Positions 1,668 through 17,046 of a stretch of 17,257 nucleotides of DNA are shown piece after piece. The position numbers were made by a program, and so were the translations under genes. How positions within the stretch are numbered: the stretch's first letter is position 1; every line of letters starts with the position of its first letter. Under the pieces are notes generated by a model. That model saw only the letters and a program-made list of their open reading frames with translations, ran no database searches and was not told the DNA's origin. The stretch is from assembly GCA_046761065.1 (NCBI GenBank), contig JBHIFL010000083.1, forward strand, positions 1-17,257. The letters run 5' to 3'. This stretch comes from Candidatus Heimdallarchaeota archaeon (GTDB taxonomy: Archaea; Asgardarchaeota; Wukongarchaeia; Wukongarchaeales; JBHIFL01).

Positions 1668-1712
1668 AAAAAAAGAAGAAAAAAAGAAGAAGAGAGACGG
1701 AATGGCTCTCTT
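1668..1712 (-). terminator. Hairpin plus long oligo-U terminator of the surface-protein gene
   Basis: On the minus strand, AAGAGAG-N9-CTCTCTT overlaps the stop codon and is followed directly by a ~22-nt C/T-only, T-rich tract. Confidence 0.7.
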
Positions 1713-4317
1713 ATACAAGGTGCTTCTTTCGAGTCATCAATAGCAATCCAAAGACACTCAGTGCCATTACTACATCCAATAACGTGAATCCTGGAACAAA
1801 GAAAGCGGCTTCCTGCTCCAACTCACTTGGGGGGACGTTTTCCGTAATACCGTTGTCTGTTACTATTATACTGTCTACTTTAGCTTCTTCGCCATCCATT
1901 CCAATTGCAATTACTACAATCAAATGTTCACCGTCTGCTCGCGTTGTACTATCCCAGGTAAATGAATACTCATCAGTCTCTTTCTGCTCCATTGGATATC
2001 CCAGCCCATCTATAGTAAGTGAGACAAATTGTAAACCCATGGGATCATATACCTTGGCCAAAATAGTGACTTCCCCTGAAACCGTGTCCCCTTTGAGAGG
2101 TTCTATAATTTCTATCATTGGAGGCTTGTTATCATCTGCTAAGTTATCCACTTCCACACTAACTTCCGCTTTTGCCCGATGTCCTGCATTGTCTAAAGCA
2201 GAAACGCGTAGATTGTACGTCCCATCTCCACCCAGCTTGGTCGTGTCCCACATCGCCGTCCAACGCTCATTATCTTGTTTCTCAAGGTTCAATTCTGTCC
2301 AATCAATCAAGAGGTATTTACTGCCAATTTCGAGTCTTACTGAATCATCTCGCACTCCACTTTCTGGATCGCGAATCATAATTTCGATTTCAATCGTTCC
2401 AGAAACCCGATCACCTTGAATTGGATATTGAAAATCGATTTCCGGCGCTCGGATATCGGTTCCTTCCTTGATAAAATCAAATTCAAAGAGCACACCAAAT
2501 TCCGTGAGTTCAACGGACTCGTTAAATAGTTGGAGCTCAAATTGATTTTTAGGAATGCCTTCGTCTTCCCATTCATTATGCCAAACATCATAACCCTGGC
2601 CCCATTTGTCCTTGTTAGGAGTAACATCGAGAACCCGACCGGGAACTTCAATGCGGAAGTGAGAACTGTCTACTTCTGGTAGTTTTCGGAGAGGAGCGTA
2701 GCCATTCAATGCATTCTGTGTCGAGATATAATTCTCACCTGGGCTGAAATACTGTTCTAGCCACCAATCCACGCCAATCCCCTTCTCAGGTAACCGAGAA
2801 GGTGCTTCGAAATGTATGTTATTCTCGATGTGAGGGGCACTCCCGAAGTCAATATGGTTATATAATGCACTCTTTGAGATTAATTCAGGTTTCTTTGCCC
2901 GTTCTATAATAATGTTCCAGTCCACCCAGCCATAGTAGTGAACATGTAAGCCGCCATCCCAAAAGTCTTCATTACCCAAGTGGAACTCGACATCTAAGTC
3001 AACTCCATAAGCTGCTGCAATCGCATCGGCAATTGAACTATACTCAGGGTCATCGGATACAAAATCTATATCTAAGAAGATATTGGGCTCTTGCCGGATT
3101 ACCTGCGCCGCCAACGACGTGTTCGAAGAAATTGGGGCTTCTACCAGTTGTTCTTTGGGACCTTCTACTCGCAAATGTAAATTCTCAACAAACTCATAGA
3201 GTGGGTCATTCTCATAGTCTATGGTTTGTGTTAAGGATGCACTTGGATCTGCTAACCCCATCCGTACCTCTAGGTTTCCAAAGGGATCAACGCTCATTTC
3301 AGCATGTTCGTGAGTCTGTAATGCCCGGGGGACAAATTGATAGTCGAAGCGAACCCTGAAGCTATCGAAAGAAACCATTGGATCACGTATATCCAAGTTA
3401 ACTCCATGTCGCCAAGCGTTTTGCCAACCTTCATACCAACGATCTTCGTGGACCGCATAGCCCCCATAATCACCTATTGGAGGCTCTGTCGAGAGAATGT
3501 CAACATCTGGCAGGTTGAAGCTGTACCATGAGTCCTCCGAGTATTCACTTCGCTCTATTCTTGCTAAGTGAAGGAGGTTCTCCATCACAAGTTCGTGTCC
3601 TCCTTCAAGCTCCGAAATAAAACTATTGAAACCCACTCCAATCTGTTCGAAGAACTGGTCATCCCCAACGGAGAACGAGTCCCCTTGATGATGCTGAATT
3701 TCGAACCACGCCTCATCTGCGCCAGTCACATCAATATTCGCAGCGATACCTCCCATCTCACGAGGCAGACTATTCTCCAGCTCATTCACAAACCAAGGAA
3801 AGTCGATGTGCGCGCTATAGTAAACTCGAACCATGTCTACATCGTCATAAACATTCTGAGGATCACGTTCTTCAACCCAGGTCTCTGATCCCCGGAACTC
3901 GAAAGTCACTAATAGTCTAGAGTTTATTTGGTGCATTATTTGATTGGCAAATTCTTCTGCAGCCACCGGATCCTTTAACTCGAAATTCACATCTACCCAG
4001 GTGTTCTCTTCATTCGGATCCCGGCTTTCTTTGGCATTTGTTCGTAGCCATCTAAAAGCTATCCATTCGTTTCCAGAAAAGTCAAGAGAGGTCTTTGACC
4101 AATGCACTCCAATGCCTTCTACTGAAGCCCAAGACCAAATATGTCCCTCTCGCTCTACTCGAACTTCTGCAGATTCTCGATAGTAGTCTGAAGGCTGACT
4201 GAGACCTAATGATTTGTCTAAACAGCGTTCTGATCGTGCTACATGTGTTGGAAACATTACCAGTCCAATGGCAAGGACTACTATTACAACTCTTATATAA
4301 AATCGTGTCAAATCCAA
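1711..4317 (-). CDS. Secreted cell-surface protein: signal peptide, two tandem ~285-aa unknown domains, two Ig-like domains, PGF-CTERM-like anchor
   Basis: N-terminal basic plus hydrophobic signal (RFYIRVVIVVLAIGLVMFPTHVA) and an acidic mature region. Two D..PP.I....P..GD.VSG...WD.T...DG.Y/H.L Ig-like repeats. C-terminus is VPGF + transmembrane helix + RKK. The TTG start is uncertain by a couple of codons. Confidence 0.85.
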   Translation of the reverse strand: MDLTRFYIRVVIVVLAIGLVMFPTHVARSERCLDKSLGLSQPSDYYRESAEVRVEREGHIWSWASVEGIGVHWSKTSLDFSGNEWIAFRWLRTNAKESRDPNEENTWVDVNFELKDPVAAEEFANQIMHQINSRLLVTFEFRGSETWVEERDPQNVYDDVDMVRVYYSAHIDFPWFVNELENSLPREMGGIAANIDVTGADEAWFEIQHHQGDSFSVGDDQFFEQIGVGFNSFISELEGGHELVMENLLHLARIERSEYSEDSWYSFNLPDVDILSTEPPIGDYGGYAVHEDRWYEGWQNAWRHGVNLDIRDPMVSFDSFRVRFDYQFVPRALQTHEHAEMSVDPFGNLEVRMGLADPSASLTQTIDYENDPLYEFVENLHLRVEGPKEQLVEAPISSNTSLAAQVIRQEPNIFLDIDFVSDDPEYSSIADAIAAAYGVDLDVEFHLGNEDFWDGGLHVHYYGWVDWNIIIERAKKPELISKSALYNHIDFGSAPHIENNIHFEAPSRLPEKGIGVDWWLEQYFSPGENYISTQNALNGYAPLRKLPEVDSSHFRIEVPGRVLDVTPNKDKWGQGYDVWHNEWEDEGIPKNQFELQLFNESVELTEFGVLFEFDFIKEGTDIRAPEIDFQYPIQGDRVSGTIEIEIMIRDPESGVRDDSVRLEIGSKYLLIDWTELNLEKQDNERWTAMWDTTKLGGDGTYNLRVSALDNAGHRAKAEVSVEVDNLADDNKPPMIEIIEPLKGDTVSGEVTILAKVYDPMGLQFVSLTIDGLGYPMEQKETDEYSFTWDSTTRADGEHLIVVIAIGMDGEEAKVDSIIVTDNGITENVPPSELEQEAAFFVPGFTLLDVVMALSVFGLLLMTRKKHLV

Positions 4318-4682: not shown

Positions 4683-5843
4683 TTATTCCTCGGTTTTCGG
4701 CTTAGGTAGTACCGCCTTGAACAATGCTTCGTCTACTAGTTTCCCTTGAGCAAGCAGTTGGCGAAACTTGATAAAGTCAATTGTGTCCTTTCCCGTGAGT
4801 TTTCGCGTGTTGAACGCATGAAACCCTAGAAAGGCTTCATAGTTCATATTGACTGCTAACCAGTGCCGATTGTAATTCTTCGTAGCATCCCAGAAGAACT
4901 TTTTCTTCGCTCGAACACTATCCATTGCTTTCATCAAACACCCGGGGAAGAGGTTCGCAAAAGTCCAAACTATTTTGTTTACCTCTTTATCCAGCAACTC
5001 AAAGCTGATCTTATCCTGGTCTCTTGCTTCTTTGATGTAGGCTTGAGCCGCCTTGAATTTTTCCCCTGTTTTGAACTCGCCATAGACTATTTCACCATCG
5101 TCCACATACTTCTCTATGACGACCGACGGATTGCGAACCCATTCGTCTCCATCCTTGATCACTGGCACGACTTTGGTTAAATACCCTAGACGCTTCATCT
5201 TATAGGCACTCCACATCTCACAGGAGACACAATTCCACATGGCATCTTCAATTGACAGATACCACGGCAAGAAGTCAGAGGATCCCCCATCGGGAGAAGA
5301 CCCGTGTCTGGGGCCCGCTTGGCCAAAAATTGCCAGGTCGGAAGTGACCGCCAAATCGCAAGCCATCCCGATTTCTTGCCCACCAGCTACCCGCATTCCG
5401 TTCACTCGGTTAATCACGGGCTTCTTGCACATGAGAATAGAATCCACCAATTTTATGAAGAGCTCCATGTATTCTCCGTATTCATTGGGACGACTGGTAT
5501 AGTATTCGGCGTATTCTTTGGTGTTTCCACCGGTGCAGAACGCGACTGACCCAGTACCAGTAAAAATAACCGCCACGACACTGCGATCTAGAGAGGCATT
5601 TTCAAATCCGGCGATGGCCCCTTTGCACATTTCAGTTGTATAGCTGTTATATTGCCGAGGGTTGTCTAGGATAATCCAAGTGACATAGAGATCTTCGATG
5701 ATGTTACCTTCAGGATCTGTCAATGGACGTTTTTCATATATCGTGCGGGGAGCGGTACTACCCCAGTGCTGCGTGCCATGGAGATCGTTATGCGTCTTAA
5801 GTTCGAGATCTCGCGTTAACCAATCCAATCTCACATTTTTCAC
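4683..5843 (-). CDS. bamA: 6-oxocyclohex-1-ene-1-carbonyl-CoA hydrolase (ring-opening hydrolase of the benzoyl-CoA pathway)
   Basis: Family-diagnostic stretches: YEKRP, WIILDNPRQYNSYTTEM, AFCTGGNTKEYAEYY, KPVINRVNGMRVAGGQEIGMACD, GQAGPRHGSSPDGG, CEMWSAYK, FPGCL, WLAVNM..EA.LGF.AFN, DFIKFRQLLA. Length 386 aa; GTG start. Confidence 0.95.
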   Translation of the reverse strand: MKNVRLDWLTRDLELKTHNDLHGTQHWGSTAPRTIYEKRPLTDPEGNIIEDLYVTWIILDNPRQYNSYTTEMCKGAIAGFENASLDRSVVAVIFTGTGSVAFCTGGNTKEYAEYYTSRPNEYGEYMELFIKLVDSILMCKKPVINRVNGMRVAGGQEIGMACDLAVTSDLAIFGQAGPRHGSSPDGGSSDFLPWYLSIEDAMWNCVSCEMWSAYKMKRLGYLTKVVPVIKDGDEWVRNPSVVIEKYVDDGEIVYGEFKTGEKFKAAQAYIKEARDQDKISFELLDKEVNKIVWTFANLFPGCLMKAMDSVRAKKKFFWDATKNYNRHWLAVNMNYEAFLGFHAFNTRKLTGKDTIDFIKFRQLLAQGKLVDEALFKAVLPKPKTEE

Positions 5844-6101: not shown

Positions 6102-6950
6102 ATGAAAATTAAAGTTGTGGATTTCCACGTCCATGCATTGAGCTCAGAAGCGGATTGGCATCCTTGGGTTGTGTCATATGGTTTTGATATGAATCCTACC
6201 CTACAAACGATGTTAATAGAGGTCACAACCCCTACCGGTCTTTGGACGTACTTATCTGAACAAGGAATTGACTTAGCAGTAATCCTCGCCGAAGATTCGC
6301 CCGTAACGACTACTGCGAAGCGAGGAACCGAAATTAATGAGTTTATTGCAAAAATATGTTCGCAAAACCCGGATAAAATGATTCCATTCTGCTCGGTTAA
6401 TCCGAAAACAGTTGCAAGGCCTGCAAAGGAACTCCAGCGCCTTGTCGAGGACTTGGGTTTTAAAGGATTAAAGCTTTATCCACCATATCAGTTGTATTAC
6501 CCAAATGATCAAGAGATCTATCCACTATATGCGAAAGCTGAAGAACTAGGCATTCCAGTCATGGTTCATACGGGTAGTAGTGTATTTCGAGGGGCTCGCT
6601 TGAAATATGGTGATCCCCTCTATTTAGATGATGTGGCAGTTGATTTCCCCGATCTTAAGCTGCTTCAAGTTCACTCGGGTCGAGGATTCTGGTACGACCA
6701 GGCATTCTTTCTTGCAAAACTACATAAAAATGTGTATCTTGAAATCGCTGGATTGCCCCCTCAAAATCTATTAAAATACTTCCCAAAGCTCGAAAAACTT
6801 GCAGACAAATTTATTTTTGGTTCCGACTGGCCAGGTGTTCCCAGTATAAAGAAGAACATTAAGATAATCAGAGAATTGCCTCTCAGTTCAGAAACAAAAC
6901 GGAAAATTCTTGGGCAAAATGCGTTGAGGATCCTAAAGAGTGTCTTATAA
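6102..6950 (+). CDS. Amidohydrolase_2 family metal-dependent hydrolase/decarboxylase
   Basis: Motifs DFHVH, GFKGLKLYP, IPVMVHTG, DDVAVDFPDL...H.G and FIFGSDWP. AGGAG Shine-Dalgarno upstream. Confidence 0.92.
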   Translation: MKIKVVDFHVHALSSEADWHPWVVSYGFDMNPTLQTMLIEVTTPTGLWTYLSEQGIDLAVILAEDSPVTTTAKRGTEINEFIAKICSQNPDKMIPFCSVNPKTVARPAKELQRLVEDLGFKGLKLYPPYQLYYPNDQEIYPLYAKAEELGIPVMVHTGSSVFRGARLKYGDPLYLDDVAVDFPDLKLLQVHSGRGFWYDQAFFLAKLHKNVYLEIAGLPPQNLLKYFPKLEKLADKFIFGSDWPGVPSIKKNIKIIRELPLSSETKRKILGQNALRILKSVL

Positions 6951-7004: not shown

Positions 7005-7448
7005 TTAATCTCGTGTGTCAGGTGAGTTTGTGGGTCTTTCAACATAAACTAAGGCTTCGGTAGGACATTGTTGAGTACAAAGGGGGTGCTCCTCATTCCG
7101 GCATTGATCACATTGAACGGCTACTTTCTGCTCCATATCAGCTGCTATTGCTCCGTAGGGGCACGCCATGATACAAGTCCAGCATCCAACGCACTTCCTA
7201 AAATCATTAAACACAACTTCCTTCTGTAAATCTTTCTGCAATGAGCCCGTCAAACATGCATCAATGCAAGGTGAATCCTCACACTGTCGACATATCGCTT
7301 GCCACTCATATCGGCCAAAAGGATCGCGATGTATCGTGATCCCGCTAGCCCAAGGTTTTGATTCTCCAAACTTACTTATCGAACACACCATAGAACAAAT
7401 TTTACACCCTGTACATAATTCCGATCTAGCGTAAATCTGTTTAACCAT
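7005..7448 (-). CDS. 4x[4Fe-4S] electron-transfer subunit (DmsB/HycB-like), small subunit of the AOR-family complex
   Basis: Cys groups CTGCKICSMVC, CRQCEDSPCIDAC, CVGCWTCIMACP and CDQC...PLCTQQCP. Lies 16 bp downstream of the AOR gene. Confidence 0.92.
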   Translation of the reverse strand: MVKQIYARSELCTGCKICSMVCSISKFGESKPWASGITIHRDPFGRYEWQAICRQCEDSPCIDACLTGSLQKDLQKEVVFNDFRKCVGCWTCIMACPYGAIAADMEQKVAVQCDQCRNEEHPLCTQQCPTEALVYVERPTNSPDTRD

Positions 7449-7464: not shown

Positions 7465-9312
7465 TTACCATAGTGACTCCGATGAAGTTGGACGCCCTTC
7501 TTGATCCCACCCTCTTAGAGCGTAATAGCGGGATAACATCCTTTGAAATTCTGTTCGGTCGATATGGTGGCCCTTAGCTAAGCGTAACGGCATAGGGTCA
7601 TCGAAATAGCGCTTCGGTAACGTATCATCTTTCCGAGAGACACCTAGCTTCACATTTATTCTTCGTTCAAGTTCAACTATTCGTTTCCCGACTTCTTGCA
7701 ACTCGTCTTCCGTATATTCGAAGCCTGTCACTAAGCGAATCAATTCTGCAAAGTGTTCATATCCTAATAATCGCGGGGAATTAAAACCGCGGCAAAGAAA
7801 CTTGCAAAGGCCCAAGGAGTCTATGACGGCATGGATATTCTCTTGCCCATAGACGATGTGTTCCTTTGTCGAATATTCTATTGGGGATGGATTGATGTGC
7901 GTACCATAGAGATCCTCATAGATCTCTGGAGGGAGATCGAGAATATCTAGCGTTGGACGTGAACGGAGATGGTCAGCTCCTCGTGAGGAGGTTGCAATGC
8001 CGAGGGCAAAACTTTTGATGTAACGACAATCATGAGGATCAGATTGTGGGAGCCCTTTTATCGCAATAAGGTAGTCTATAGCATCTTCTCCAAAGATTTT
8101 TGTTGCTTCTATGCTATTAGCTAAAATGTTTCCAAAACCCTCTCGCTTAGAGATGTCTATCATGAGCTGTTTTGCAAGCTCGGAATTTCCAAACTCTAAA
8201 TAGATCCCCCCTGTCACCTTTTCGTCTATCAACCCTCGCTCAAATAGCTCGATAGCCCAACCAATGATAGTGCCAGTAGACGCTACATCCAAACCAAGCT
8301 CATTGGCTAAATTGTTAAGTTTAATTACCTCTGTAGTTGAGGAAATCCCAAGATTGGCACCTAAAAGGCCTATTGTGGTGTATTCCGGGCCTTCACCACC
8401 AAACACATTCCTATGTCGGCAATGCACCAGACACCCGTGACAAGAGAGCATTTTCATTACATAATTATGAATCACTTCAGCATCAAGGGTGTCTTCAAAT
8501 GCGTTCAGTTGACTGTTTTTCGTCCTGATAGCGCCTAAATAGTTGCTAACTTCATAAAGGAGTGGTGTTCCAACGCGTCCAAGCACCTGAACTATTTTTG
8601 ATTGGGCGAGATATTTGTTTATTTCCATGAGTCGCATTAAAAATTCTTTTGGGGACTTAATGGGGATACCAAGGGTTCCACTTGCTACAATAGCTTTGAG
8701 GTTCTTTGATCCCATAATGGTACCTATCCCACATCGTCCTGCGGCATTCTTAACACCATTAATGACTGTTGCAAAACGTACAAGATTCTCTCCGGCTGGA
8801 CCAATACACGCCACTTCGATATGGTGTCCCAACTCCTTTCTGAGCGCAAGCTGTGTTTCTCGAGTATTCAACCCCCAATAATCTTTTACGTCTCTAATCT
8901 CGACCCTTCCATTTTTTAAAAACAGATATGAAGGAGAATCGGCTTTTCCAAGAATCACCAGGCGATCTATGCCTGCATATCTCATCTCGGCAGGGAAGAA
9001 TCCCCCCATGTTCGTATCTCCCAGAATCCTACTCTCTGGCGACTTTGTGGTGATATTGATTCGAGAACAGTTCGGAGCTCCGGTCCCTGTCAGAAGTCCC
9101 GTACCAAAAATGAGTGGATTAGTCGGGGAAAGAGGATCCACTTCCGGCTTCAGGAACTCGTGGAGATAATACATATTAACTCCTCTCCCACCAAGCAGGG
9201 CTTTAACCACATTTTTAGGGGTATAGGTGGTCTTCGATGTTTTATTAGTAAGATCGACAACTGTTACGTTGCTACGCCAGAATTTACGATCTTTCTCTTC
9301 GTTTTTCATCAT
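7465..9312 (-). CDS. aor: Tungstopterin aldehyde:ferredoxin oxidoreductase (AOR/WOR) family catalytic subunit
   Basis: VDL, LGGRG, NPLIFGTGLLTG, KSP, GGFFPAEMRYAG, IGPAGENLV, AAGRCGIGTIMGSKNLKAI, CxxCxxxC (CHGCLVHC), ELGLD, RGADH, DSLGLC, DDTLPKR and YYALRGWD. The family call is secure; the substrate is unknown. Confidence 0.93.
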   Translation of the reverse strand: MMKNEEKDRKFWRSNVTVVDLTNKTSKTTYTPKNVVKALLGGRGVNMYYLHEFLKPEVDPLSPTNPLIFGTGLLTGTGAPNCSRINITTKSPESRILGDTNMGGFFPAEMRYAGIDRLVILGKADSPSYLFLKNGRVEIRDVKDYWGLNTRETQLALRKELGHHIEVACIGPAGENLVRFATVINGVKNAAGRCGIGTIMGSKNLKAIVASGTLGIPIKSPKEFLMRLMEINKYLAQSKIVQVLGRVGTPLLYEVSNYLGAIRTKNSQLNAFEDTLDAEVIHNYVMKMLSCHGCLVHCRHRNVFGGEGPEYTTIGLLGANLGISSTTEVIKLNNLANELGLDVASTGTIIGWAIELFERGLIDEKVTGGIYLEFGNSELAKQLMIDISKREGFGNILANSIEATKIFGEDAIDYLIAIKGLPQSDPHDCRYIKSFALGIATSSRGADHLRSRPTLDILDLPPEIYEDLYGTHINPSPIEYSTKEHIVYGQENIHAVIDSLGLCKFLCRGFNSPRLLGYEHFAELIRLVTGFEYTEDELQEVGKRIVELERRINVKLGVSRKDDTLPKRYFDDPMPLRLAKGHHIDRTEFQRMLSRYYALRGWDQEGRPTSSESLW

Positions 9313-9350: not shown

Positions 9351-10727
9351 CTATGCCTCGCCGAGTTCTTTTTTTCGCCAGCGTTCCTCATCGATCTTCT
9401 TCTTATACTTCTTCTCCATTCCAATGGTTTTTCTCCAAACCACATAACCAGGAGGACCTTCCATCTCAGATTGGAAAAGTTTATGCCTCAGATGCGCAAA
9501 AAACTGACCTCTTTCTGCAAGATACTCTGCTGCTGTTCCTAATATTGTGCCATTTTTGATTAGATTTGTGAGAATACCGCCTTGGGTGATGTCTCCAACA
9601 AGAATGGCTCCAAGGAGTGTTCCATCTCCATCCTTAATTAGCAACTTTTCATAAATTCCCTCCTTTTCCGAGTGAAGCCCTACAATTTCATGGCATGATG
9701 CTCGAGGGCATGAGATGGCTCCTATAGAAATCCAAGGGATTCCAAAGTATCTCATCGCGACCATAGCTATCCCTCCCTTGTACTCTCTTTTAACTCCAGC
9801 TAAGTTCATTCCAGCAATCCGACCCTGTTCGCGAGCATTACCAAGATTCGCTACCATTCGGTTCTCCCGGTAGACCAGATCATACGGTTGGGCGGCATCT
9901 CCGGCGGCGTACACATTCGGGACAGACGTCCGAAGATAATGATCAACAAGAACCCCCGATGCGGTGCGGATTCCAGAATCTTTCAAGAAATTAATAGCAG
10001 GTCGTACTCCAGTACACATAACCACAAGTGTACTAGGAATCTGTCGTCCATCGTCAAGGATAACACCAGTAACACCTCTTCCCTTTTCATCTCCACGAAT
10101 TTCTTGTATTTCCCGCCCAGTTAAGACGATAAGCTCTTTTTTTTCCATATACCTTTGGACGATCCGCGCTGCGGTGGTGTCTAGATTTTGGGTTAAAATT
10201 TGGTTAAGAAGCTCCACCACAACAACTTTAAGGCCCCGTGTAGAAAGCGCGTGTGCTGCACTCAGACCCACAAGTCCAGCACCTACCACAACCGCGGTTT
10301 CAGCTCTCTTTGCCCTGTTGGCTATTTGTTGAGCATCATTAAGGGTCCAAAAGGAATAAACTCCTTCTCTTTGGAGACCCGGGATATTAGGACAGGTTGG
10401 GGTAGACCCTGTAGCGATTAAGAGGCGATCGTAACTTATATTTTGGCCATTACTCAAATGAACCACTTGATTTTCGCTATCAATACTAACAGCTTCAAGA
10501 CCATCTAATTTCGATATTTTCTTCTCTTTGTAAAATGTTTCAGGACGATAGAGGATCTCTTCATAGGTTTTCTCGCCCGACAGGTATTCTGCAATCAAAG
10601 GGCGCGAATATGGGGCGGTCCAAGCCTCTTTTGAAACAAGTGTTATGGTACTCGTTTTATCAATCTGCCTGAAAGACTCAATAGCTGCTATGGCCGCTGT
10701 GGAGTTGCCCAGAACAACGAGATCCAT
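9351..10727 (-). CDS. FAD-dependent pyridine nucleotide-disulfide oxidoreductase family protein (NirB/rubredoxin-reductase-like; putative NAD-coupling subunit of the AOR complex)
   Basis: Degenerate FAD motif VVLGNSTAA, PYSRPLI, YDRLLIATGS, NAD motif VVVGAGLVG...VVE, TGVRP and TSVPNVYAAGD. Confidence 0.9.
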   Translation of the reverse strand: MDLVVLGNSTAAIAAIESFRQIDKTSTITLVSKEAWTAPYSRPLIAEYLSGEKTYEEILYRPETFYKEKKISKLDGLEAVSIDSENQVVHLSNGQNISYDRLLIATGSTPTCPNIPGLQREGVYSFWTLNDAQQIANRAKRAETAVVVGAGLVGLSAAHALSTRGLKVVVVELLNQILTQNLDTTAARIVQRYMEKKELIVLTGREIQEIRGDEKGRGVTGVILDDGRQIPSTLVVMCTGVRPAINFLKDSGIRTASGVLVDHYLRTSVPNVYAAGDAAQPYDLVYRENRMVANLGNAREQGRIAGMNLAGVKREYKGGIAMVAMRYFGIPWISIGAISCPRASCHEIVGLHSEKEGIYEKLLIKDGDGTLLGAILVGDITQGGILTNLIKNGTILGTAAEYLAERGQFFAHLRHKLFQSEMEGPPGYVVWRKTIGMEKKYKKKIDEERWRKKELGEA

Positions 10728-11474: not shown

Positions 11475-12251
11475 ATGAAGTATAAGGAAATTCTCCTCCA
11501 ACGGGATAATCAAGTAGCGACACTCATTCTGAATCGACCCGAAAAGCGAAATGCGTTATCTTTATGTCTCCTCGAGGAACTTATTATTGCTTTACAGGAC
11601 TTCTATGTCGATAAGGAAACACGTGTCGTGGTAATCAAAGGAGCGGGACCATGCTTTAGCGCAGGACATGATCTGTCTGAGATGATCAACAAAGATATTC
11701 TTCATTACAAGAAGATCTTTGAGACATGCTCTAAAATGATGAAATTACTTCAACAAATTCCACAGCCAACCATTGCACAAGTTCACGGGGTTGCAATGGC
11801 TGCAGGTTGTCAATTAGTTGCCGCATGTGACCTAGCTATTGCTGCAGAAGGAACTCGCTTCAGTACGCCAGGTGTAAGGATCGGTTTGTTCTGTATTACC
11901 CCAAGTGTACCACTGAGTAGAGCCATCGGAAGAAAACGAGCTCTAGAAATGTTGTTTACTGGGGATTTTATTAATGCAAAAGAAGCATACGAGTACGGTC
12001 TTATAAACCGTGTTGTCCCTCCAGCTCAACTGGAAGCTGCCACCCAAGAATTAACCACAGCGATCGTACGTTCGAGTCCCATGGCTATCAGTATCGGTAA
12101 ACAAGCTTTCTATACGCAGATTAATATGCCTGATGATCAGGCTTATGACTTTGCCACAAACACTATTGCTCTCAATCTTGCTACGTATGATGCACAAGAA
12201 GGCATTTCGGCTTTTCTTGAAAAGAGAACCCCAAAATGGAAAGGAAAATAA
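11475..12251 (+). CDS. Enoyl-CoA hydratase/isomerase (crotonase) family protein, ECHDC3-like subgroup
   Basis: LNRPEKRNALS, FSAGHDL, PQPTIAQVHG.A.AAGCQLVAACDLA, FSTPGVRIGLFC.TP.V.LSR.IGRKRALEMLFTG and EGISAFLEKR.P.W. Confidence 0.92.
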   Translation: MKYKEILLQRDNQVATLILNRPEKRNALSLCLLEELIIALQDFYVDKETRVVVIKGAGPCFSAGHDLSEMINKDILHYKKIFETCSKMMKLLQQIPQPTIAQVHGVAMAAGCQLVAACDLAIAAEGTRFSTPGVRIGLFCITPSVPLSRAIGRKRALEMLFTGDFINAKEAYEYGLINRVVPPAQLEAATQELTTAIVRSSPMAISIGKQAFYTQINMPDDQAYDFATNTIALNLATYDAQEGISAFLEKRTPKWKGK

Positions 12252-13201: not shown

Positions 13202-14368
13202 ATGAAACAGCTTCAGGTCGCTAAAAGGTCGACAAATATCCCATCAAGTGGCATTCGACGGATGTACAACATTGCCACGCAGATGAAAGAAAAAGACATG
13301 ATCTGGCTTGTCATCGGAGAACCCGACTTTCCGACACCCGTTCATATTATTAATGCGGGCAAAGAAGCACTAAACTCGGGGTTTACACATTATACCCATA
13401 ACTTGGGTTTACTTGAGCTAAGGGAAGCAATTGCGCGTAAGCTCAAGCGTGAGAATGGAATTGAAACAAATCCTGAAACAGAAATTATCGCAACAACGGG
13501 GGCACAAGGCGCCTTAATCATGACCCTTTTTATAATCCTCGAAGAAGGAGATGAAATATTAGTTCCACGCCCTTGTTTTGCTAGCTACGAGGCGCAAATC
13601 AAGCTGGCAAATGCGATCCTAGTTCCTATTTCTCTAAAAGAAGATGAATTCAACTTGGATATCGAATTAATCAAAGAAAAGATTACTCCCCAAACAAAGG
13701 CTCTACTGATTAATTCCCCTTGTAATCCAACAGGTGCGATGTGTTCGGAAGCGGTTCTCAAAGCTATTGCAGATTTGGCCGAAGACCATGGGATTTTCAT
13801 TATCAAAGACAACCCGTATGAGAAGATCGTATATGATAGAAAGCATGTTAGTATTGCTCCCATGGCTAAAGATCAAACGATCTCGATCTTTTCTTTTTCA
13901 AAAAGCTATGCCATGGCCGGGTGGCGGATTGGGTATGCTACTGCAAATGAAGAGATCATCCGAGAAATGCAAAAAATGCACGAGCATTTTTGTATTCACC
14001 CGAGCAGTGTCTCCCAGAAGGCGGCAATAGCAGCCCTTGACGGTTCACAAGAGTGTGTGGAATCAATGGTACAAACCTATAAGGAAAGGCGCTCCGTTAT
14101 TGTGAATGGGCTGAACAAGATTCCAGGAATCTCTTGTATTGCACCCCATGGGACTTTTTATGTTTTCCCTAACATTAAAGCGCTAGGACGTTCTTCGCAG
14201 GAGCTTGCCGAGTATTTGCTTAGAGCAGGTCATGTTGTGACTGTTCCAGGAACCGCCTTTGGACCGGAGGGAGAAGGACATCTCCGTATTTCCTATTCTG
14301 CTTCGATGGAAGCTATTAAAGAGGCGCTTTCCCGGATCCAAAAGGCGGTTTTACGCTTAAGTCAGTAG
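13202..14368 (+). CDS. PLP-dependent class I/II aminotransferase (aspartate/aromatic aminotransferase-like)
   Basis: IGEPDFPTP, THYT...GL.ELREAIA, NSPCNPTG, D.PY, SFSKSYAMAGWRIG (PLP lysine), G.FYVFP, VPGTAFG..GEGHLRISY. Confidence 0.95.
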   Translation: MKQLQVAKRSTNIPSSGIRRMYNIATQMKEKDMIWLVIGEPDFPTPVHIINAGKEALNSGFTHYTHNLGLLELREAIARKLKRENGIETNPETEIIATTGAQGALIMTLFIILEEGDEILVPRPCFASYEAQIKLANAILVPISLKEDEFNLDIELIKEKITPQTKALLINSPCNPTGAMCSEAVLKAIADLAEDHGIFIIKDNPYEKIVYDRKHVSIAPMAKDQTISIFSFSKSYAMAGWRIGYATANEEIIREMQKMHEHFCIHPSSVSQKAAIAALDGSQECVESMVQTYKERRSVIVNGLNKIPGISCIAPHGTFYVFPNIKALGRSSQELAEYLLRAGHVVTVPGTAFGPEGEGHLRISYSASMEAIKEALSRIQKAVLRLSQ

Positions 14369-14429
14369 AATACATCCTCTGTATCCAACTGAGGTATTGA
14401 TCAAAAAAACATATTCTACCGTCTTTACT

Positions 14430-15647
14430 TTATTTGACTTTGCCTATAATTGCTTTTAAGTCGTCATCAGAAAGGGTAGATTTTCTTTTCACAGCCTCCA
14501 CCTTAACTAGTTCAATAACTTTATTTATTTCATCTTCGGTAAGGTTAAGGCCTAATATATTTAAATTGTGTATAATAGAATCGCGGCCACTTTTCTTTCC
14601 ATACATAATCTCCACTCCTTTCTGACCAACCAAATCCCAGCGGTATGGGTACATCACTAAAGGCATGTTTGCTTCTTTAACTCGTAACCACCAGCCCACG
14701 ACTATGCCTGACTCCATTGCAAAAGCATTATCTCCGACAATCGCTTTATGGGGAGGCATCTTTATGCCTGAAAGCTTTTCAACCAGTTTTGATAACTCAT
14801 AAAGTTTTGTATAATCTAGTCCAAGTTGAAATCCATAAAGGGCTTCAAGGGCCAGCGCTACCTCCGCCAAATCGGCATTCCCCATCCTTTCACCGATGCC
14901 ATTAACAGTTGTGTGGACGATTTCTGCGCCTTCGCATACCGCTGCAAGGGTGTTTGCTGTTGCTAACCCAAAATCATTGTGGAAATGGGCCTCAATTGGC
15001 TTGTTCAATTCATCACGAGCTTTTTTGGTGAAGAACCGGGTTGCCTCGGGTGAACAGACTCCAAACGTATCGACAAGAGCTAATGAGTCCATATGGCCTT
15101 CCGTTGCGACATTGTTTATTATTTTGATCCACCAATCAAGGTCTGCCCTGGTTGAATCGATTGTGAAGAAGGTTACGTGTAAACCATGGTCCGCAGCATA
15201 CTTTGTAGCTTCGATAGATAAGTCAATAGCCTTTTCAAGTGGCCATTTATATGCATGCTTTATAATATGTTTGCTGGAGGGAATCTCCGTTACCACCCCA
15301 TCAACATCACATTCTAAAGCTAAATCCACATCTGCTTTCATACATCGACAAAATGCAAAGATTTTTGCGTTTAAGCCATCATTTGCAATATCTTTCACTG
15401 CATCTTTATCTTCTTTAGAGATCGCTGGCATTCCAGCTTCGATACGAGGAACTCCTAGCGCATCGAGCTGTCTTGCAATTTTGAGTTTGTCTTCCTTATT
15501 AAATACCAAACCCGCTTGTTGCTCACCATCCCTCAATGTAATATCGTGAATCGCGACATCTTTTGGCAGGTTTAAGCCTGCTCGTACTTCATCATCAAAA
15601 TTGTGTTGACTTACCCACCACTTATCAGTTAACCATTGTTTTCGCAT
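14430..15647 (-). CDS. LeuA/homocitrate-synthase-like DRE-TIM metallolyase without a regulatory domain
   Basis: HDITLRDGEQQAG, IEAG.P, DTFG, HFHNDFGLATAN.LAA, TVNGIGERMGNA, K.IVGDNAF and GKKSG. At 405 aa it has no C-terminal allosteric domain. Confidence 0.88.
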   Translation of the reverse strand: MRKQWLTDKWWVSQHNFDDEVRAGLNLPKDVAIHDITLRDGEQQAGLVFNKEDKLKIARQLDALGVPRIEAGMPAISKEDKDAVKDIANDGLNAKIFAFCRCMKADVDLALECDVDGVVTEIPSSKHIIKHAYKWPLEKAIDLSIEATKYAADHGLHVTFFTIDSTRADLDWWIKIINNVATEGHMDSLALVDTFGVCSPEATRFFTKKARDELNKPIEAHFHNDFGLATANTLAAVCEGAEIVHTTVNGIGERMGNADLAEVALALEALYGFQLGLDYTKLYELSKLVEKLSGIKMPPHKAIVGDNAFAMESGIVVGWWLRVKEANMPLVMYPYRWDLVGQKGVEIMYGKKSGRDSIIHNLNILGLNLTEDEINKVIELVKVEAVKRKSTLSDDDLKAIIGKVK

Positions 15648-15840
15648 AATTCAACCCTCTTTATTTATCGCAAAGATATCTGTTTTACTTTCTTTTGGTT
15701 CATCAAGAATTTTTTGGCTTTCATAATCAACCAACTTTTCAGAACATCTACCTATAACAAATAGCTATTGGAGTCCCATCGATTAATTTAAAACCCCATA
15801 AGTTTAGCCCGAATACAAACAAGCCAGCAGAGGGCTTAAA

Positions 15841-17046
15841 ATGATACACCAGCAAAAGTTAGTTCTTATCGGGGTAACTTTCGCCCATTCACTTTCTCAC
15901 GCATTTGTGATGACATTTCCTGCCCTTTTACCTTTTATTCAAGAGAGTTTCGTCCTCACATCATATACAGAATTGGGGCTCCTACCAGGGATTCTCTTAG
16001 TTACTTATGGCTTAACGACATTTCCAAGTGGAATTTTATCAGATGCGGTAGGAATTACTCGTGTTTTGACTGTGTACTTGGTTATTTTAGCAATTTGTTC
16101 TTTTATGTTGCTTGTTGTAACAACGTTTACTGTGCTTCTTGTTCTTGTGGGAGTAATTGGCCTTACTGCTGGGTTATATCATCCTCCTGGCCTATCGTTA
16201 ATTTCCCAATCATTCTCATCAGACGATCTGGGCAAATTTTTTGGAGCACATGGCATATCTGGTAATATAGGTGTCGCGATTGCCCCCGGTATAGCAGTAT
16301 TTATAGCGAGTACAAAATATGGTTGGCAATATGCTCTCCTACCGTTTGGTCTGTTCTCACTTTTTGCGATCCCCCTTTTTCTAGCCCTCCCTCTTCAACC
16401 AGAAAGTACTAGCCATCATCAAAATCGTTCTAAACTGATAAACTCTCTTGACTCACAATTTGATGCTGAAAATCCTCCAGTTATCTACATCCACCCATTG
16501 ATTGTTATATTTGCAATTAGTACTCTAGTGGGCTTAATTGACCGTGGTTTGATCTCATTTTTAGCTGTTTACTTAGTAGATGCCCGTTATTATACACATG
16601 CGACTGCCGGTTTTATAATTTCGGGGATCTTTTTAATTGCAATAACTAGTCAGATCGCTTTTGGGATGTTCGCAGATTCTATTGGCCCAATGACCGCGTT
16701 TCGAATCGCAGCTATAGTTATTACACTTTTCTTTTTTCTGATACCGTTCGTTCCTGGGACTGTACTCCTAATTGTTTTGACCATTGCAGCTTTTGCCATC
16801 ACAGGGACCCAACCACCCCTTAACATCCTAACAACAAGTGTCAGCCCCTTAGAAAAAAGAGGCACCATTTTTGGATTCCAGTTTACTGCGGTTTTTGGGT
16901 TTGGAGGGATCGCAGGCTTTCTTGCAGGAATAATTGCGTCATTATTTGGACTTGAAGTAATTTATCTTGTTCTTAGTGGCTTTGGCGCATTACTTTTGAT
17001 CCTACTCCTAATATACCCCCGGTGGGCACCTACTCCAACTTATTAG
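15841..17046 (+). CDS. MFS transporter
   Basis: About 12 hydrophobic segments, motif A variants G.LSDAVG and G.FADSIG, GLYHPPG, and a hydrophilic central loop. Confidence 0.92.
   Translation: MIHQQKLVLIGVTFAHSLSHAFVMTFPALLPFIQESFVLTSYTELGLLPGILLVTYGLTTFPSGILSDAVGITRVLTVYLVILAICSFMLLVVTTFTVLLVLVGVIGLTAGLYHPPGLSLISQSFSSDDLGKFFGAHGISGNIGVAIAPGIAVFIASTKYGWQYALLPFGLFSLFAIPLFLALPLQPESTSHHQNRSKLINSLDSQFDAENPPVIYIHPLIVIFAISTLVGLIDRGLISFLAVYLVDARYYTHATAGFIISGIFLIAITSQIAFGMFADSIGPMTAFRIAAIVITLFFFLIPFVPGTVLLIVLTIAAFAITGTQPPLNILTTSVSPLEKRGTIFGFQFTAVFGFGGIAGFLAGIIASLFGLEVIYLVLSGFGALLLILLLIYPRWAPTPTY

What the first reader, a model, noticed from the sequence alone, without database searches (positions are those of the whole stretch)
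8371..8400. AOR-family tungsten enzyme with the catalytic EYE glutamate replaced by Thr (GPEYTT)
Seen: GGEGPEYTTIG (Thr codon ACC at 8377-8379), while the [4Fe-4S] cysteines, the pterin-binding motifs and the active-site His (RGADH) are intact. Established: Pyrococcus furiosus AOR and FOR use the second Glu of EYE as a catalytic residue. Benzoyl-CoA reductase BamB differs in this region and has a W-ligating Cys. Inference: this protein is neither a canonical AOR nor BamB. It may be an uncharacterised WOR clade with a different substrate or mechanism, which is notable so close to bamA.
Basis: partly seen in the sequence, partly recalled or inferred. Interest (0 to 1): 0.7.

Follow-up and report, generated by a model that had tools for sequence, protein, structure and literature searches.

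The report
Glu-less tungsten oxidoreductase beside benzoyl-CoA genes
An Asgard archaeon from a hydrothermal vent encodes a three-subunit tungsten enzyme of the aldehyde-oxidoreductase family whose usual catalytic glutamate is replaced by threonine; this is the fixed hallmark of a widespread, unstudied branch of the family that usually sits beside genes for anaerobic breakdown of aromatic rings.

Summary
The gene is on the minus strand, 7465-9312 (615 aa). Codon ACC at 8377-8379 is Thr312 in GGEGPEYTTIG, which aligns with P. furiosus AOR Glu313. It is not an error. Four per-run assemblies carry the same codon, and all 132 close homologues have Thr (125) or Ser (7).

The Thr/Ser clade is monophyletic and nested in a larger Glu-less group. 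It occurs in at least 229 species genomes of about 13 phyla.

Thr243, Glu311, Tyr312, His448 and the four cluster cysteines are kept. Tyr427 is His, Tyr452 is Arg, and a Ser-Asp-Pro insertion is invariant.

Thr312 probably occupies the position of the metal-ligating Cys of BamB (Cys322) and YdhV (Cys336). No invariant extra Cys exists, so this is not BamB.

The flanking genes are AorC-like (FAD) and AorA/WorS-like (four [4Fe-4S]), giving a Class III WorLSN layout.

Neighbourhoods link the clade to Bzd-type and Bam-type benzoyl-CoA reductases, Dch/Had/Oah, CoA ligases and 2-hydroxyacyl-CoA-dehydratase-like genes. The link is not obligatory.

The substrate is unknown. My best guess is an NAD-linked oxidation of an aromatic carbonyl compound using a relocated proton relay.

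The parts
7465..9312 (-). Catalytic tungstopterin/[4Fe-4S] subunit (WorL/AorB-like), 615 aa, Thr/Ser clade
   Evidence: Pfam AFOR_N 2.4e-72 and AFOR_C 1.2e-102. PDB 1AOR 9.5e-112. AF2 model pLDDT 84.7, TM 0.86 to 1AOR/9MQX and 0.82 to BamB.
8377..8379 (-). Codon ACC = Thr312, at the position of PfAOR Glu313 and, by inference, BamB Cys322 and YdhV Cys336
   Evidence: the reads agree
8419..8442 (-). C291-x2-C294-x3-C298: three of the four [4Fe-4S] ligands, within the clade-invariant HCRH
7804..7806 (-). Cys503, the fourth [4Fe-4S] ligand (PfAOR Cys494), in pterin motif IDSLGLC; followed by the clade-specific insertion C507..F510-N511-S512-P513
8566..8568 (-). Thr249 = PfAOR Thr243 (second-shell residue kept)
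8023..8043 (-). S424-D425-P426-H427-D428-C429-R430: a clade-specific Ser-Asp-Pro insertion, then His427 in place of Tyr427. D428 and R430 are family-wide anchors.
   Evidence: HMMER and MAFFT place the gap differently.
7957..7971 (-). H448-L-R450-S-R452: His448 kept; Arg452 replaces PfAOR Tyr452 and is invariant in the clade
7005..7448 (-). Small polyferredoxin subunit (WorS/AorA-like), 147 aa, 16 Cys for four [4Fe-4S]; 16-bp gap after the W subunit gene
   Evidence: Pfam Fer4_11. PDB 9MQX_E 4.3e-30 and 8C0Z_C 1.5e-16. Cys motifs. Adjacent in 50 of 63 related loci.
9351..10727 (-). FAD/NAD(H) subunit (WorN/AorC-like), 458 aa; 38-bp gap before the W subunit gene
   Evidence: Pyr_redox_2 2.4e-58. 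Best PDB hit 8C0Z_E (AorC) 1.7e-52. Best NCBIfam hit PadH, below its cut-off. GAGLVG...VVVVE. Adjacent in 58 of 63 related loci.
4683..5843 (-). [quoted passage not shown]
   Evidence: NCBIfam TIGR03200 equivalog, 522.8 bits against a cut-off of 464.45
11475..12251 (+). Enoyl-CoA hydratase, 258 aa (context gene; a Dch-type role is not shown)
   Evidence: ECH_1 1.2e-58; NF006008 347 bits
14430..15647 (-). LeuA/HMGL-like gene that recurs beside the module in Hermod- and Promethearchaeota loci (context gene)
   Evidence: cluster 22

Best explanation
The gene encodes the tungsten-bis-pyranopterin/[4Fe-4S] catalytic subunit of a three-subunit complex built like AorABC of Aromatoleum aromaticum. The parts are the W subunit, a polyferredoxin with four [4Fe-4S] clusters, and an FAD/NAD(H) flavoprotein (Class III WorLSN). 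It belongs to a widespread, uncharacterised clade in which the proposed catalytic Glu313 is fixed as Thr/Ser.

Shown here: family membership, the cofactor motifs, the subunit set, that the substitution is fixed across the clade, and the genomic linkage to anaerobic aromatic and acyl-CoA catabolism.

Inferred: the enzyme still carries out a two-electron oxidation of a carbonyl substrate at W(VI)=O. The most likely substrate is an aromatic or other aldehyde whose acid product goes to the neighbouring CoA ligase and on to benzoyl-CoA. Electrons would pass through its own cluster, then the four clusters of the small subunit, then FAD, to NAD+.

Also inferred: the acid/base work normally assigned to Glu313-His448 is taken over by His448, His427 and the inserted Asp425. 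The Thr312 hydroxyl would hydrogen-bond a W-oxo/hydroxo group or the substrate, and Arg452 and other new arginines would hold an anionic group. The substrate itself is not identified.
For: Family and cofactor sites.

Partner subunits: the best structural relatives are AorC (8C0Z_E, 1.7e-52) and WorS/AorA. The genes are co-oriented with gaps of 38 and 16 bp. The FAD gene is adjacent in 92% and the FeS gene in 79% of 63 related loci.

Second shell: Thr243, Glu311, Tyr312 and His448 are kept. Tyr427 to His is a substitution already seen in the characterised aldehyde oxidisers AOR_Cf and ASOR.

Pathway logic: an AMP-forming CoA ligase lies within 10 kb in 48% of loci, and some CoA-pathway gene in 70%. 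bamA is above its curated cut-off in 33 of 49 carrier genomes, against 1 of 166 non-carrier Asgard genomes.

Benzoyl-CoA reductase genes lie beside the module. Bzd-type (BzdN 490 bits, BzdQ 434 bits, both over cut-off). True bamB.

The module coexists with both reductase classes, so it is an accessory enzyme and not the ring reductase.
Against: Every characterised aldehyde-oxidising clade (AOR, FOR, GAPOR, GOR, WOR5/ASOR) keeps Glu313. Only the non-aldehyde BamB and YdhV clades lack it.

Several new invariant basic residues (R117, R263, R299, R301, R452) would suit a CoA ester as well as a carboxylate.

Of 35 Asgard carrier genomes, 28 have no bamA. In one Asgard family the FAD subunit is replaced by an HdrD-like CCG protein.

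No activity, structure with cofactor, or expression data exist. The model has low confidence (pLDDT 53-65) in exactly the active-site loops.
Confidence: 0.42

Rival explanations
1. A non-aldehyde enzyme that acts on a CoA thioester of the benzoyl-CoA or 2-hydroxyacyl-CoA pathways. This would be a third reaction type in the family. Examples are NAD(H)-linked reduction or oxidation of an alicyclic or aromatic acyl-CoA, or a CoA-acylating aldehyde/thioester interconversion whose potential (about -0.4 V) suits NAD(H). Thr/Ser312 would replace the water-activating Glu.
For: Glu313 is lost, as in BamB and YdhV, and the substitution very probably sits at their Cys-ligand position. Extra invariant Arg and His residues are present. 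The module is embedded among CoA-ester enzymes in 70% of loci. It lies next to BCR genes of both classes.
Against: Thr243, His448, Glu311 and Tyr312 are retained, unlike in BamB. NADH cannot drive arene reduction without bifurcation or ATP, and no Bam-type bifurcating module belongs to the unit. Sister clades tolerate Gly or Ala at position 313. There is no evidence for a CoA-binding channel.
Confidence: 0.3
2. An electron-supply module. The W subunit oxidises a very low-potential donor, and the polyferredoxin hands electrons to the ferredoxin or activator ATPases of Bzd-type benzoyl-CoA reductase and HGD-type dehydratases, with NAD(H) as a buffer.
For: In Thermoplasmatota the order is bzdNOPQ, ferredoxin, BzdV-like, MBL, W, FeS. 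BcrAD-type ATPases or HGD-D genes lie within 10 kb in 25 of 63 loci. The Asgard f9 loci pair the module with HGD-D and an activator.
Against: This overlaps the best explanation and still needs a substrate. The module also occurs beside ATP-independent Bam-type reductases, and in loci without any such gene. A BzdV-like ferredoxin reductase is already present.
Confidence: 0.13
3. An assembly or sequencing error, or a decaying paralogue among the genome's 13 AOR genes.
For: The MAG has 8.2% contamination and 13 AOR paralogues.
Against: Four assemblies carry the same codon. Thr/Ser is invariant in 132 homologues, with many invariant clade-specific residues and an intact open frame.
Confidence: 0.01

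Closest known systems
AorABC of Aromatoleum aromaticum (PDB 8C0Z), the only characterised Class III WOR (WorLSN)
   Same: The same three-subunit set: W subunit, polyferredoxin with four [4Fe-4S] clusters, FAD/NAD subunit. AorC is the best PDB hit of the flavoprotein. A MoaD/ThiS-like gene accompanies the module in related loci. Both lie in an aromatic-catabolism context.
   Different: AorB keeps all four second-shell residues including Glu313 (alignment). Foldseek identity of the W subunit is only about 31%. The gene order here is FAD-W-FeS. The Thr clade has the S-D-P and F-N-S-P insertions and Arg452.
Pyrococcus furiosus AOR (1AOR) and Acetomicrobium mobile WOR1 L subunit (9MQX)
   Same: These are the best sequence and fold matches (E 1e-112 and 1e-106; TM 0.86). 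Cluster cysteines, pterin motifs, Thr243 and His448 are shared.
   Different: Glu313 becomes Thr, Tyr427 becomes His, Tyr452 becomes Arg. Partners differ: PfAOR is a homodimer that uses ferredoxin, and WOR1 has a bifurcating ABC module.
[quoted passage not shown]
   Same: It lacks the catalytic Glu. Its distinguishing residue (Cys322) very probably lies at the same position as Thr312. It has a polyferredoxin partner and works in the benzoyl-CoA pathway.
   Different: Here there is no thiolate at that position and no invariant extra Cys. Thr243 and His448 are kept. Identity is 27%. True bamB is a separate gene next to the module in four loci. No BamDEFGHI partners belong to the unit.
YdhV of E. 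coli (Class V, clade 41)
   Same: It lacks the Glu. Its Cys336 aligns with Thr312 in MAFFT.
   Different: It is a Mo enzyme with a Cys ligand, a Tat-exported partner and 700 aa. Only the N-terminal 300 residues align well.

Membership tests
AOR/WOR family (tungsten-containing oxidoreductases) | AFOR_N plus AFOR_C domains and the three-domain fold | tested here: met
   Pfam 2.4e-72 and 1.2e-102; TM 0.82-0.87 to all solved family members
AOR/WOR family (tungsten-containing oxidoreductases) | Four Cys ligands of the [4Fe-4S] cluster and two D-x-x-G-L-(D/C) pterin motifs | tested here: met
   C291, C294, C298 and C503 are invariant in 132 homologues; NELGLD and IDSLGLC are present
AOR/WOR family (tungsten-containing oxidoreductases) | Contains W (not Mo) bis-pyranopterin | not testable with these tools
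   Needs metal analysis of the protein
Aldehyde-oxidising AORs (AOR sensu stricto, FOR, GOR) | Second-shell Glu313 | tested here: not met
   Thr312; Thr in 125 and Ser in 7 of 132
Aldehyde-oxidising AORs (AOR sensu stricto, FOR, GOR) | Second-shell Thr243 and His448 | tested here: met
   T249 and H448
Aldehyde-oxidising AORs (AOR sensu stricto, FOR, GOR) | Second-shell Tyr427 | tested here: inconclusive
   MAFFT pairs it with His427, a substitution known in AOR_Cf and ASOR. HMMER pairs it with Ser424.
Class III WOR (WorLSN, AorABC type) | Adjacent small subunit with four [4Fe-4S] clusters | tested here: met
   147 aa, 16 Cys; 9MQX_E 4e-30, 8C0Z_C 1.5e-16
Class III WOR (WorLSN, AorABC type) | Adjacent FAD/NAD(P) subunit (IPR023753 type) | tested here: met
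   Pyr_redox_2; best PDB hit AorC, 1.7e-52
Class III WOR (WorLSN, AorABC type) | NAD+-dependent aldehyde oxidation; filament of LS units on N | not testable with these tools
   Needs enzyme assay and cryo-EM
BamB (class II benzoyl-CoA reductase) | Cys322 thiolate ligand to W | tested here: not met
   Thr at the equivalent position; no invariant extra Cys (C507 98%, C194 78%, C429 43%)
BamB (class II benzoyl-CoA reductase) | Orthology to 4Z3W and BamDEFGHI partner genes | tested here: not met
   209 bits to 4Z3W, against 1154 bits for a true orthologue; partners are FAD and FeS only
BamB (class II benzoyl-CoA reductase) | Zn/proton-relay residues Glu251, His255, Glu257, His260 | not tested
   The region aligns poorly; I did not map these residues
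YdhV / Class V (clade 41) | Cys336 ligand | tested here: not met
   Thr312 in the same MAFFT column
Archaeal GAPOR | NCBIfam NF040818 equivalog score | tested here: not met
   30.9 bits against a cut-off of 1300

The most novel reading that the evidence does not exclude
Thr/Ser312 lies where BamB and YdhV place their metal-binding Cys. Its O-gamma may therefore bind tungsten directly, as Ser does in DMSO reductase. That would be the first oxygen-ligated W centre in the AOR family, and the complex would catalyse a so far unknown, non-aldehyde step on a CoA thioester of the anaerobic benzoyl-CoA / aryl-acid pathway: a third reaction type for the family after aldehyde oxidation and arene reduction.
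Probability: 0.15. Interest if true: 0.85.

Novelty: new variant of a known kind. Interest (0 to 1): 0.62.

Why it matters
Only five of 92 WOR clades have a known physiological role, and only one non-aldehyde reaction (BamB) is known (PMC13328260). This clade is common in anoxic sediments and in subsurface Bacteria and Archaea, including Asgard archaea.

It has a sharply defined active-site signature: Glu replaced by Thr/Ser at the BamB Cys position. It keeps company with the key enzymes of anaerobic aromatic degradation.

Finding its substrate would either show that the supposedly essential Glu313 is dispensable for aldehyde oxidation, or add a missing step or accessory function to the benzoyl-CoA pathway. 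A cultured carrier exists, Desulfoscipio gibsoniae, whose orthologue P0035 is 60% identical, so the question can be tested directly.

Tried and rejected
I took neighbourhoods from the search for related loci and the fetch from genomes instead.
- One search was a mistyped, too-short query. One search exceeded the 50-locus limit and was repeated.
- I looked for a BamB-like sequence among own paralogue C63 and representative P0208. Both turned out AOR-like. A true BamB was then found in a carrier genome.
- MAFFT (three modes) put BamB Cys322 six columns before the Glu column. I rejected this placement. Local alignments downstream give constant offsets that put Cys322 on the Glu/Thr position, and MAFFT puts YdhV Cys336, which the review equates with Cys322, in that column.
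- BLASTP of YdhV against P0001 stops at the third Cys, so it does not settle the point.
- I could not assign the WOR clade number (Class III clades are 13, 67 and 87). The supplementary table is cut after clade 7, and its Thermoplasmatales entries are other, 772-aa AORs.
- No paper mentions the accession numbers of the named homologues. Papers on Hermodarchaeota and wetland Asgard archaea do not discuss this enzyme.
- No RNA holder was listed for the stretch.
- A Cys in the inserted loop (C429) as a W ligand is rejected: it is Val in 72 of 132 homologues.
- An obligatory link to ring cleavage is rejected: 28 of 35 Asgard carriers lack bamA.
Full report
**Observation.**
The finding lies in a minus-strand ORF, 7465-9312, of 615 aa. 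Bases 8371-8400 encode GGEGPEYTTI. Bases 8377-8379 read GGT on the plus strand, which is ACC, Thr312.

The protein carries AFOR_N and AFOR_C. Its best solved relative is P. furiosus AOR (1AOR, E 9.5e-112). In that alignment:
- C291/C294/C298/C503 match the cluster ligands C288/C291/C295/C494.
- T249 matches Thr243.
- E310-Y311 match Glu311-Tyr312.
- H448 matches His448.
- Thr312 stands opposite Glu313.

**Not an error.**
Four contigs assembled separately from four hydrothermal-vent metagenomes hold the whole stretch. These come from one study and may be the source of this DNA. Only two differences appear, at 7177 and 7747, and none is at the Thr codon; depth is 16-37.

More telling is conservation. 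All 132 full-length homologues of 54-88% identity have Thr (125) or Ser (7) here.

**The clade.**
An alignment of 27 diverse members (A1) and a comparison with 80 Glu-containing family members define a signature:
- H297-C-R299-H300-R301-N302
- GEGPEY-[T/S]312
- an inserted S424-D425-P426 before H427-D428-x-R430
- S443-RGADH448-L-R450-x-R452-P
- a second insertion, C507..F510-N511-S512-P513
- K188-N189, where canonical enzymes have Arg182

With the invariant anchors D428 and R430, MAFFT pairs PfAOR Tyr427 with His427. The review PMC12096430 reports Tyr-to-His in the characterised AOR of C. formicoaceticum and in WOR5/ASOR. HMMER instead paired Tyr427 with Ser424, so this point stays open.

A FastTree of 173 sequences gives the following:
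- The core EY[T/S]/SDPHD/R452 clade has support 95.
- It is nested in a group of 34 (support 97) with Gly, Ala, Ser or Thr at position 313.
- That group is nested in a group of 41 (support 100) with no Glu at all, and Arg452 in 37 of the 41.

The Glu was therefore lost before this clade arose. The strict Thr/Ser is a later, fixed trait.

Among the genome's own 13 AOR paralogues, only this one lacks the Glu in this way.

**Relation to BamB and YdhV.**
According to the review, BamB and YdhV are the only clades that lack the second-shell residues, and they share a Cys ligand: Cys322 in BamB and Cys336 in YdhV.

E. coli YdhV, taken from the annotated K-12 record, puts Cys336 in the Thr312/Glu313 column.

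I found a true BamB orthologue in a carrier genome: 655 aa, 1154 bits, collinear with 4Z3W. Local alignments downstream of the site give a constant offset of 10 to P0001 and of 3 to the canonical own paralogue. Extending these back without gaps places Cys322 on Thr312 and on the canonical Glu319. MAFFT alone misplaces it by six columns.

I take the equivalence as probable, not proven. No extra Cys is invariant in the clade (C507 98%, C194 78%, C429 43%). The BamB-defining ligand is therefore absent.

**Architecture.**
The upstream gene (9351-10727) is a Pyr_redox_2 flavoprotein. Its best solved relative is AorC (8C0Z_E, 1.7e-52). It has a GAGLVG...VVVVE dinucleotide fold, whose acidic end favours NAD(H) by the usual rule, which is an inference.

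The downstream gene (7005-7448) has 16 Cys in four cluster motifs. It is closest to WorS of A. mobile and to AorA.

This is the Class III WorLSN layout of PMC13328260. Its only characterised example is AorABC.

**Distribution and neighbours.**
Clade-specific peptide patterns found 229 species genomes. The 80 loci kept come from about 13 phyla of Bacteria and Archaea. The closest relatives, at 88% and 68% identity, are labelled Heimdallarchaeota and Hodarchaeales.

I clustered all ORFs of these loci and named them by Pfam and NCBIfam. In the 63 loci with enough flank, the share with each gene type within 10 kb is:

| Neighbour | Share of 63 loci |
|---|---|
| FAD subunit | 92% |
| FeS subunit | 79% |
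| AMP-forming or PaaK-type CoA ligase | 48% |
| MoaD/ThiS-like | 41% |
| Had-like Zn-ADH | 35% |
| HGD-D/Bcr-type subunits | 33% |
| BcrAD ATPases | 33% |
| ApbA-like reductase | 33% |
| Crotonases | 30% |
| BzdV-like | 27% |
| Any CoA-pathway gene | 70% |

The layout differs by lineage:
- In Thermoplasmatota the order is bzdN-O-P-Q, ferredoxin, BzdV-like, MBL, W, FeS. BzdN and BzdQ score above their equivalog cut-offs.
- In Hermod- and Promethearchaeota the module lies between bzdNOPQ and beta-oxidation genes.
- In Peptococcaceae BRH_c8a, two Chloroflexi and a Gemmatimonadota it lies beside a true bamB with BamC/D/E-like genes.

The module accompanies both classes of benzoyl-CoA reductase, so it is not itself the ring reductase.

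bamA scores above its cut-off in 33 of 49 carrier genomes.

In a sample of 201 Asgard genomes, 35 carry the clade and 8 carry bamA, and 7 carry both. The link is strong but not obligatory.

One Asgard family pairs the W and FeS genes with an HdrD-like CCG protein in place of the flavoprotein. Its other neighbours are ApbA, a ligase, an HGD-D subunit, MaoC, a thiolase and an activator ATPase.

A pathway reading that unites these neighbour sets is aryl-2-oxoacid to aryl-lactyl-CoA to cinnamoyl-CoA to benzoyl-CoA to ring reduction and opening. This is inference only.

In the window's own genome the partners are scattered: bzdNOPQ, ferredoxin and a BzdV-like gene on contig C13; HGD-D, activator, ligase, Zn-ADH and ApbA on C23. 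bamA itself lies 1.6 kb from the module.

**Function.**
Nothing here identifies the substrate. I rank three readings.

1. An NAD-linked oxidation of an aromatic or other carbonyl compound, with a relocated proton relay (0.42). It rests on the retained Thr243, His448, Glu311 and Tyr312, the AorABC-type partners and the adjacent CoA ligases.
2. A CoA-thioester-directed reaction that is not aldehyde oxidation (0.30). It rests on the fact that all characterised aldehyde oxidisers keep the Glu, on the BamB-like position of the change, and on the new basic residues.
3. An electron-supply role for the ATP-dependent radical enzymes (0.13).

That sister clades accept Gly or Ala at position 313 argues against an essential metal-ligand role for the residue in the wider group. 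The strict Thr/Ser in the core clade shows that the hydroxyl matters there.

**Structure.**
The AF2 model has pLDDT 84.7 and pTM 0.90. It matches all solved family members, with TM 0.85-0.87 to AORs and 0.82 to BamB. It is least confident (pLDDT 53-65) in residues 241-280 and 421-460, the loops around the metal site.

**Known or new.**
I found no characterised member, structure or discussion of this clade. Earlier follow-ups in this scan reached a similar reading on other genomes.

What this report adds:
- the positional equivalence with the BamB/YdhV Cys
- the His427 reading
- the wide bacterial distribution
- the association with Bam-type as well as Bzd-type reductases
- the HdrD-like partner variant
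- the evidence that the bamA link is not obligatory

Noticed in passing
G000 whole genome (contigs C92, C77, C8, C50, C44, C91, C40, C63, C59): The genome holds 13 AOR-family paralogues, and most of them keep EYE. C63:11903-13807 has a very divergent site (LQGND) but is AOR-like, not BamB-like, by PDB search.
   Followed up: partly
G000:C13:36597-41097 and C13:60190-62730; G000:C23:6531-19515: A complete Bzd-type benzoyl-CoA reductase operon (N, O, two ATPases, ferredoxin) and a BzdV-like gene lie on C13. HGD-D, an activator ATPase, an AMP ligase, a Had-like Zn-ADH and ApbA lie on C23. In relatives these are the usual neighbours of the module; here they are scattered.
   Followed up: partly
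L018 (Peptococcaceae BRH_c8a), ORF 14108-16075 = L115:286-2253:-: A true bamB orthologue (1154 bits to 4Z3W_A), with BamC-, BamD- and BamE-like genes, lies about 2 kb downstream of the Thr-clade FAD-W-FeS module. Chloroflexi loci L026 and L046 and Gemmatimonadota locus L072 show the same arrangement.
   Followed up: yes
L097-L102 (Asgard family f9): A variant module in which an HdrD/TfrB-like protein with two CCG domains (519 aa) replaces the FAD subunit. It is flanked by ApbA, an activator ATPase, HGD-D, MaoC, a thiolase and an AMP ligase, with a ferredoxin-EtfA fusion nearby.
   Followed up: partly
window 14430-15647 (-); cluster 22 in L058, L071, L075, L089, L093-L095, L105, L106: A LeuA/homocitrate-synthase-like HMGL gene, below all equivalog cut-offs, recurs next to a crotonase and a Zn-ADH beside the module in Hermod- and Promethearchaeota. 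Its role in a CoA-ester pathway is unexplained.
   Followed up: no
protein P0208 (657 aa representative): An AOR-like protein (best PDB hits 9MQX and 1AOR) has Cys at the Glu313 column (RLELCTV). It may be another clade with a thiolate at this position outside BamB and YdhV.
   Followed up: partly
window 6102-6950 (+): An Amidohydrolase_2 gene sits divergent from bamA and has no NCBIfam match. Its family includes non-oxidative aromatic-acid decarboxylases.
   Followed up: no
window 1711-4317 (-): An 868-aa acidic protein with a C-terminal membrane anchor (a surface-protein candidate). I did not examine it.
   Followed up: no
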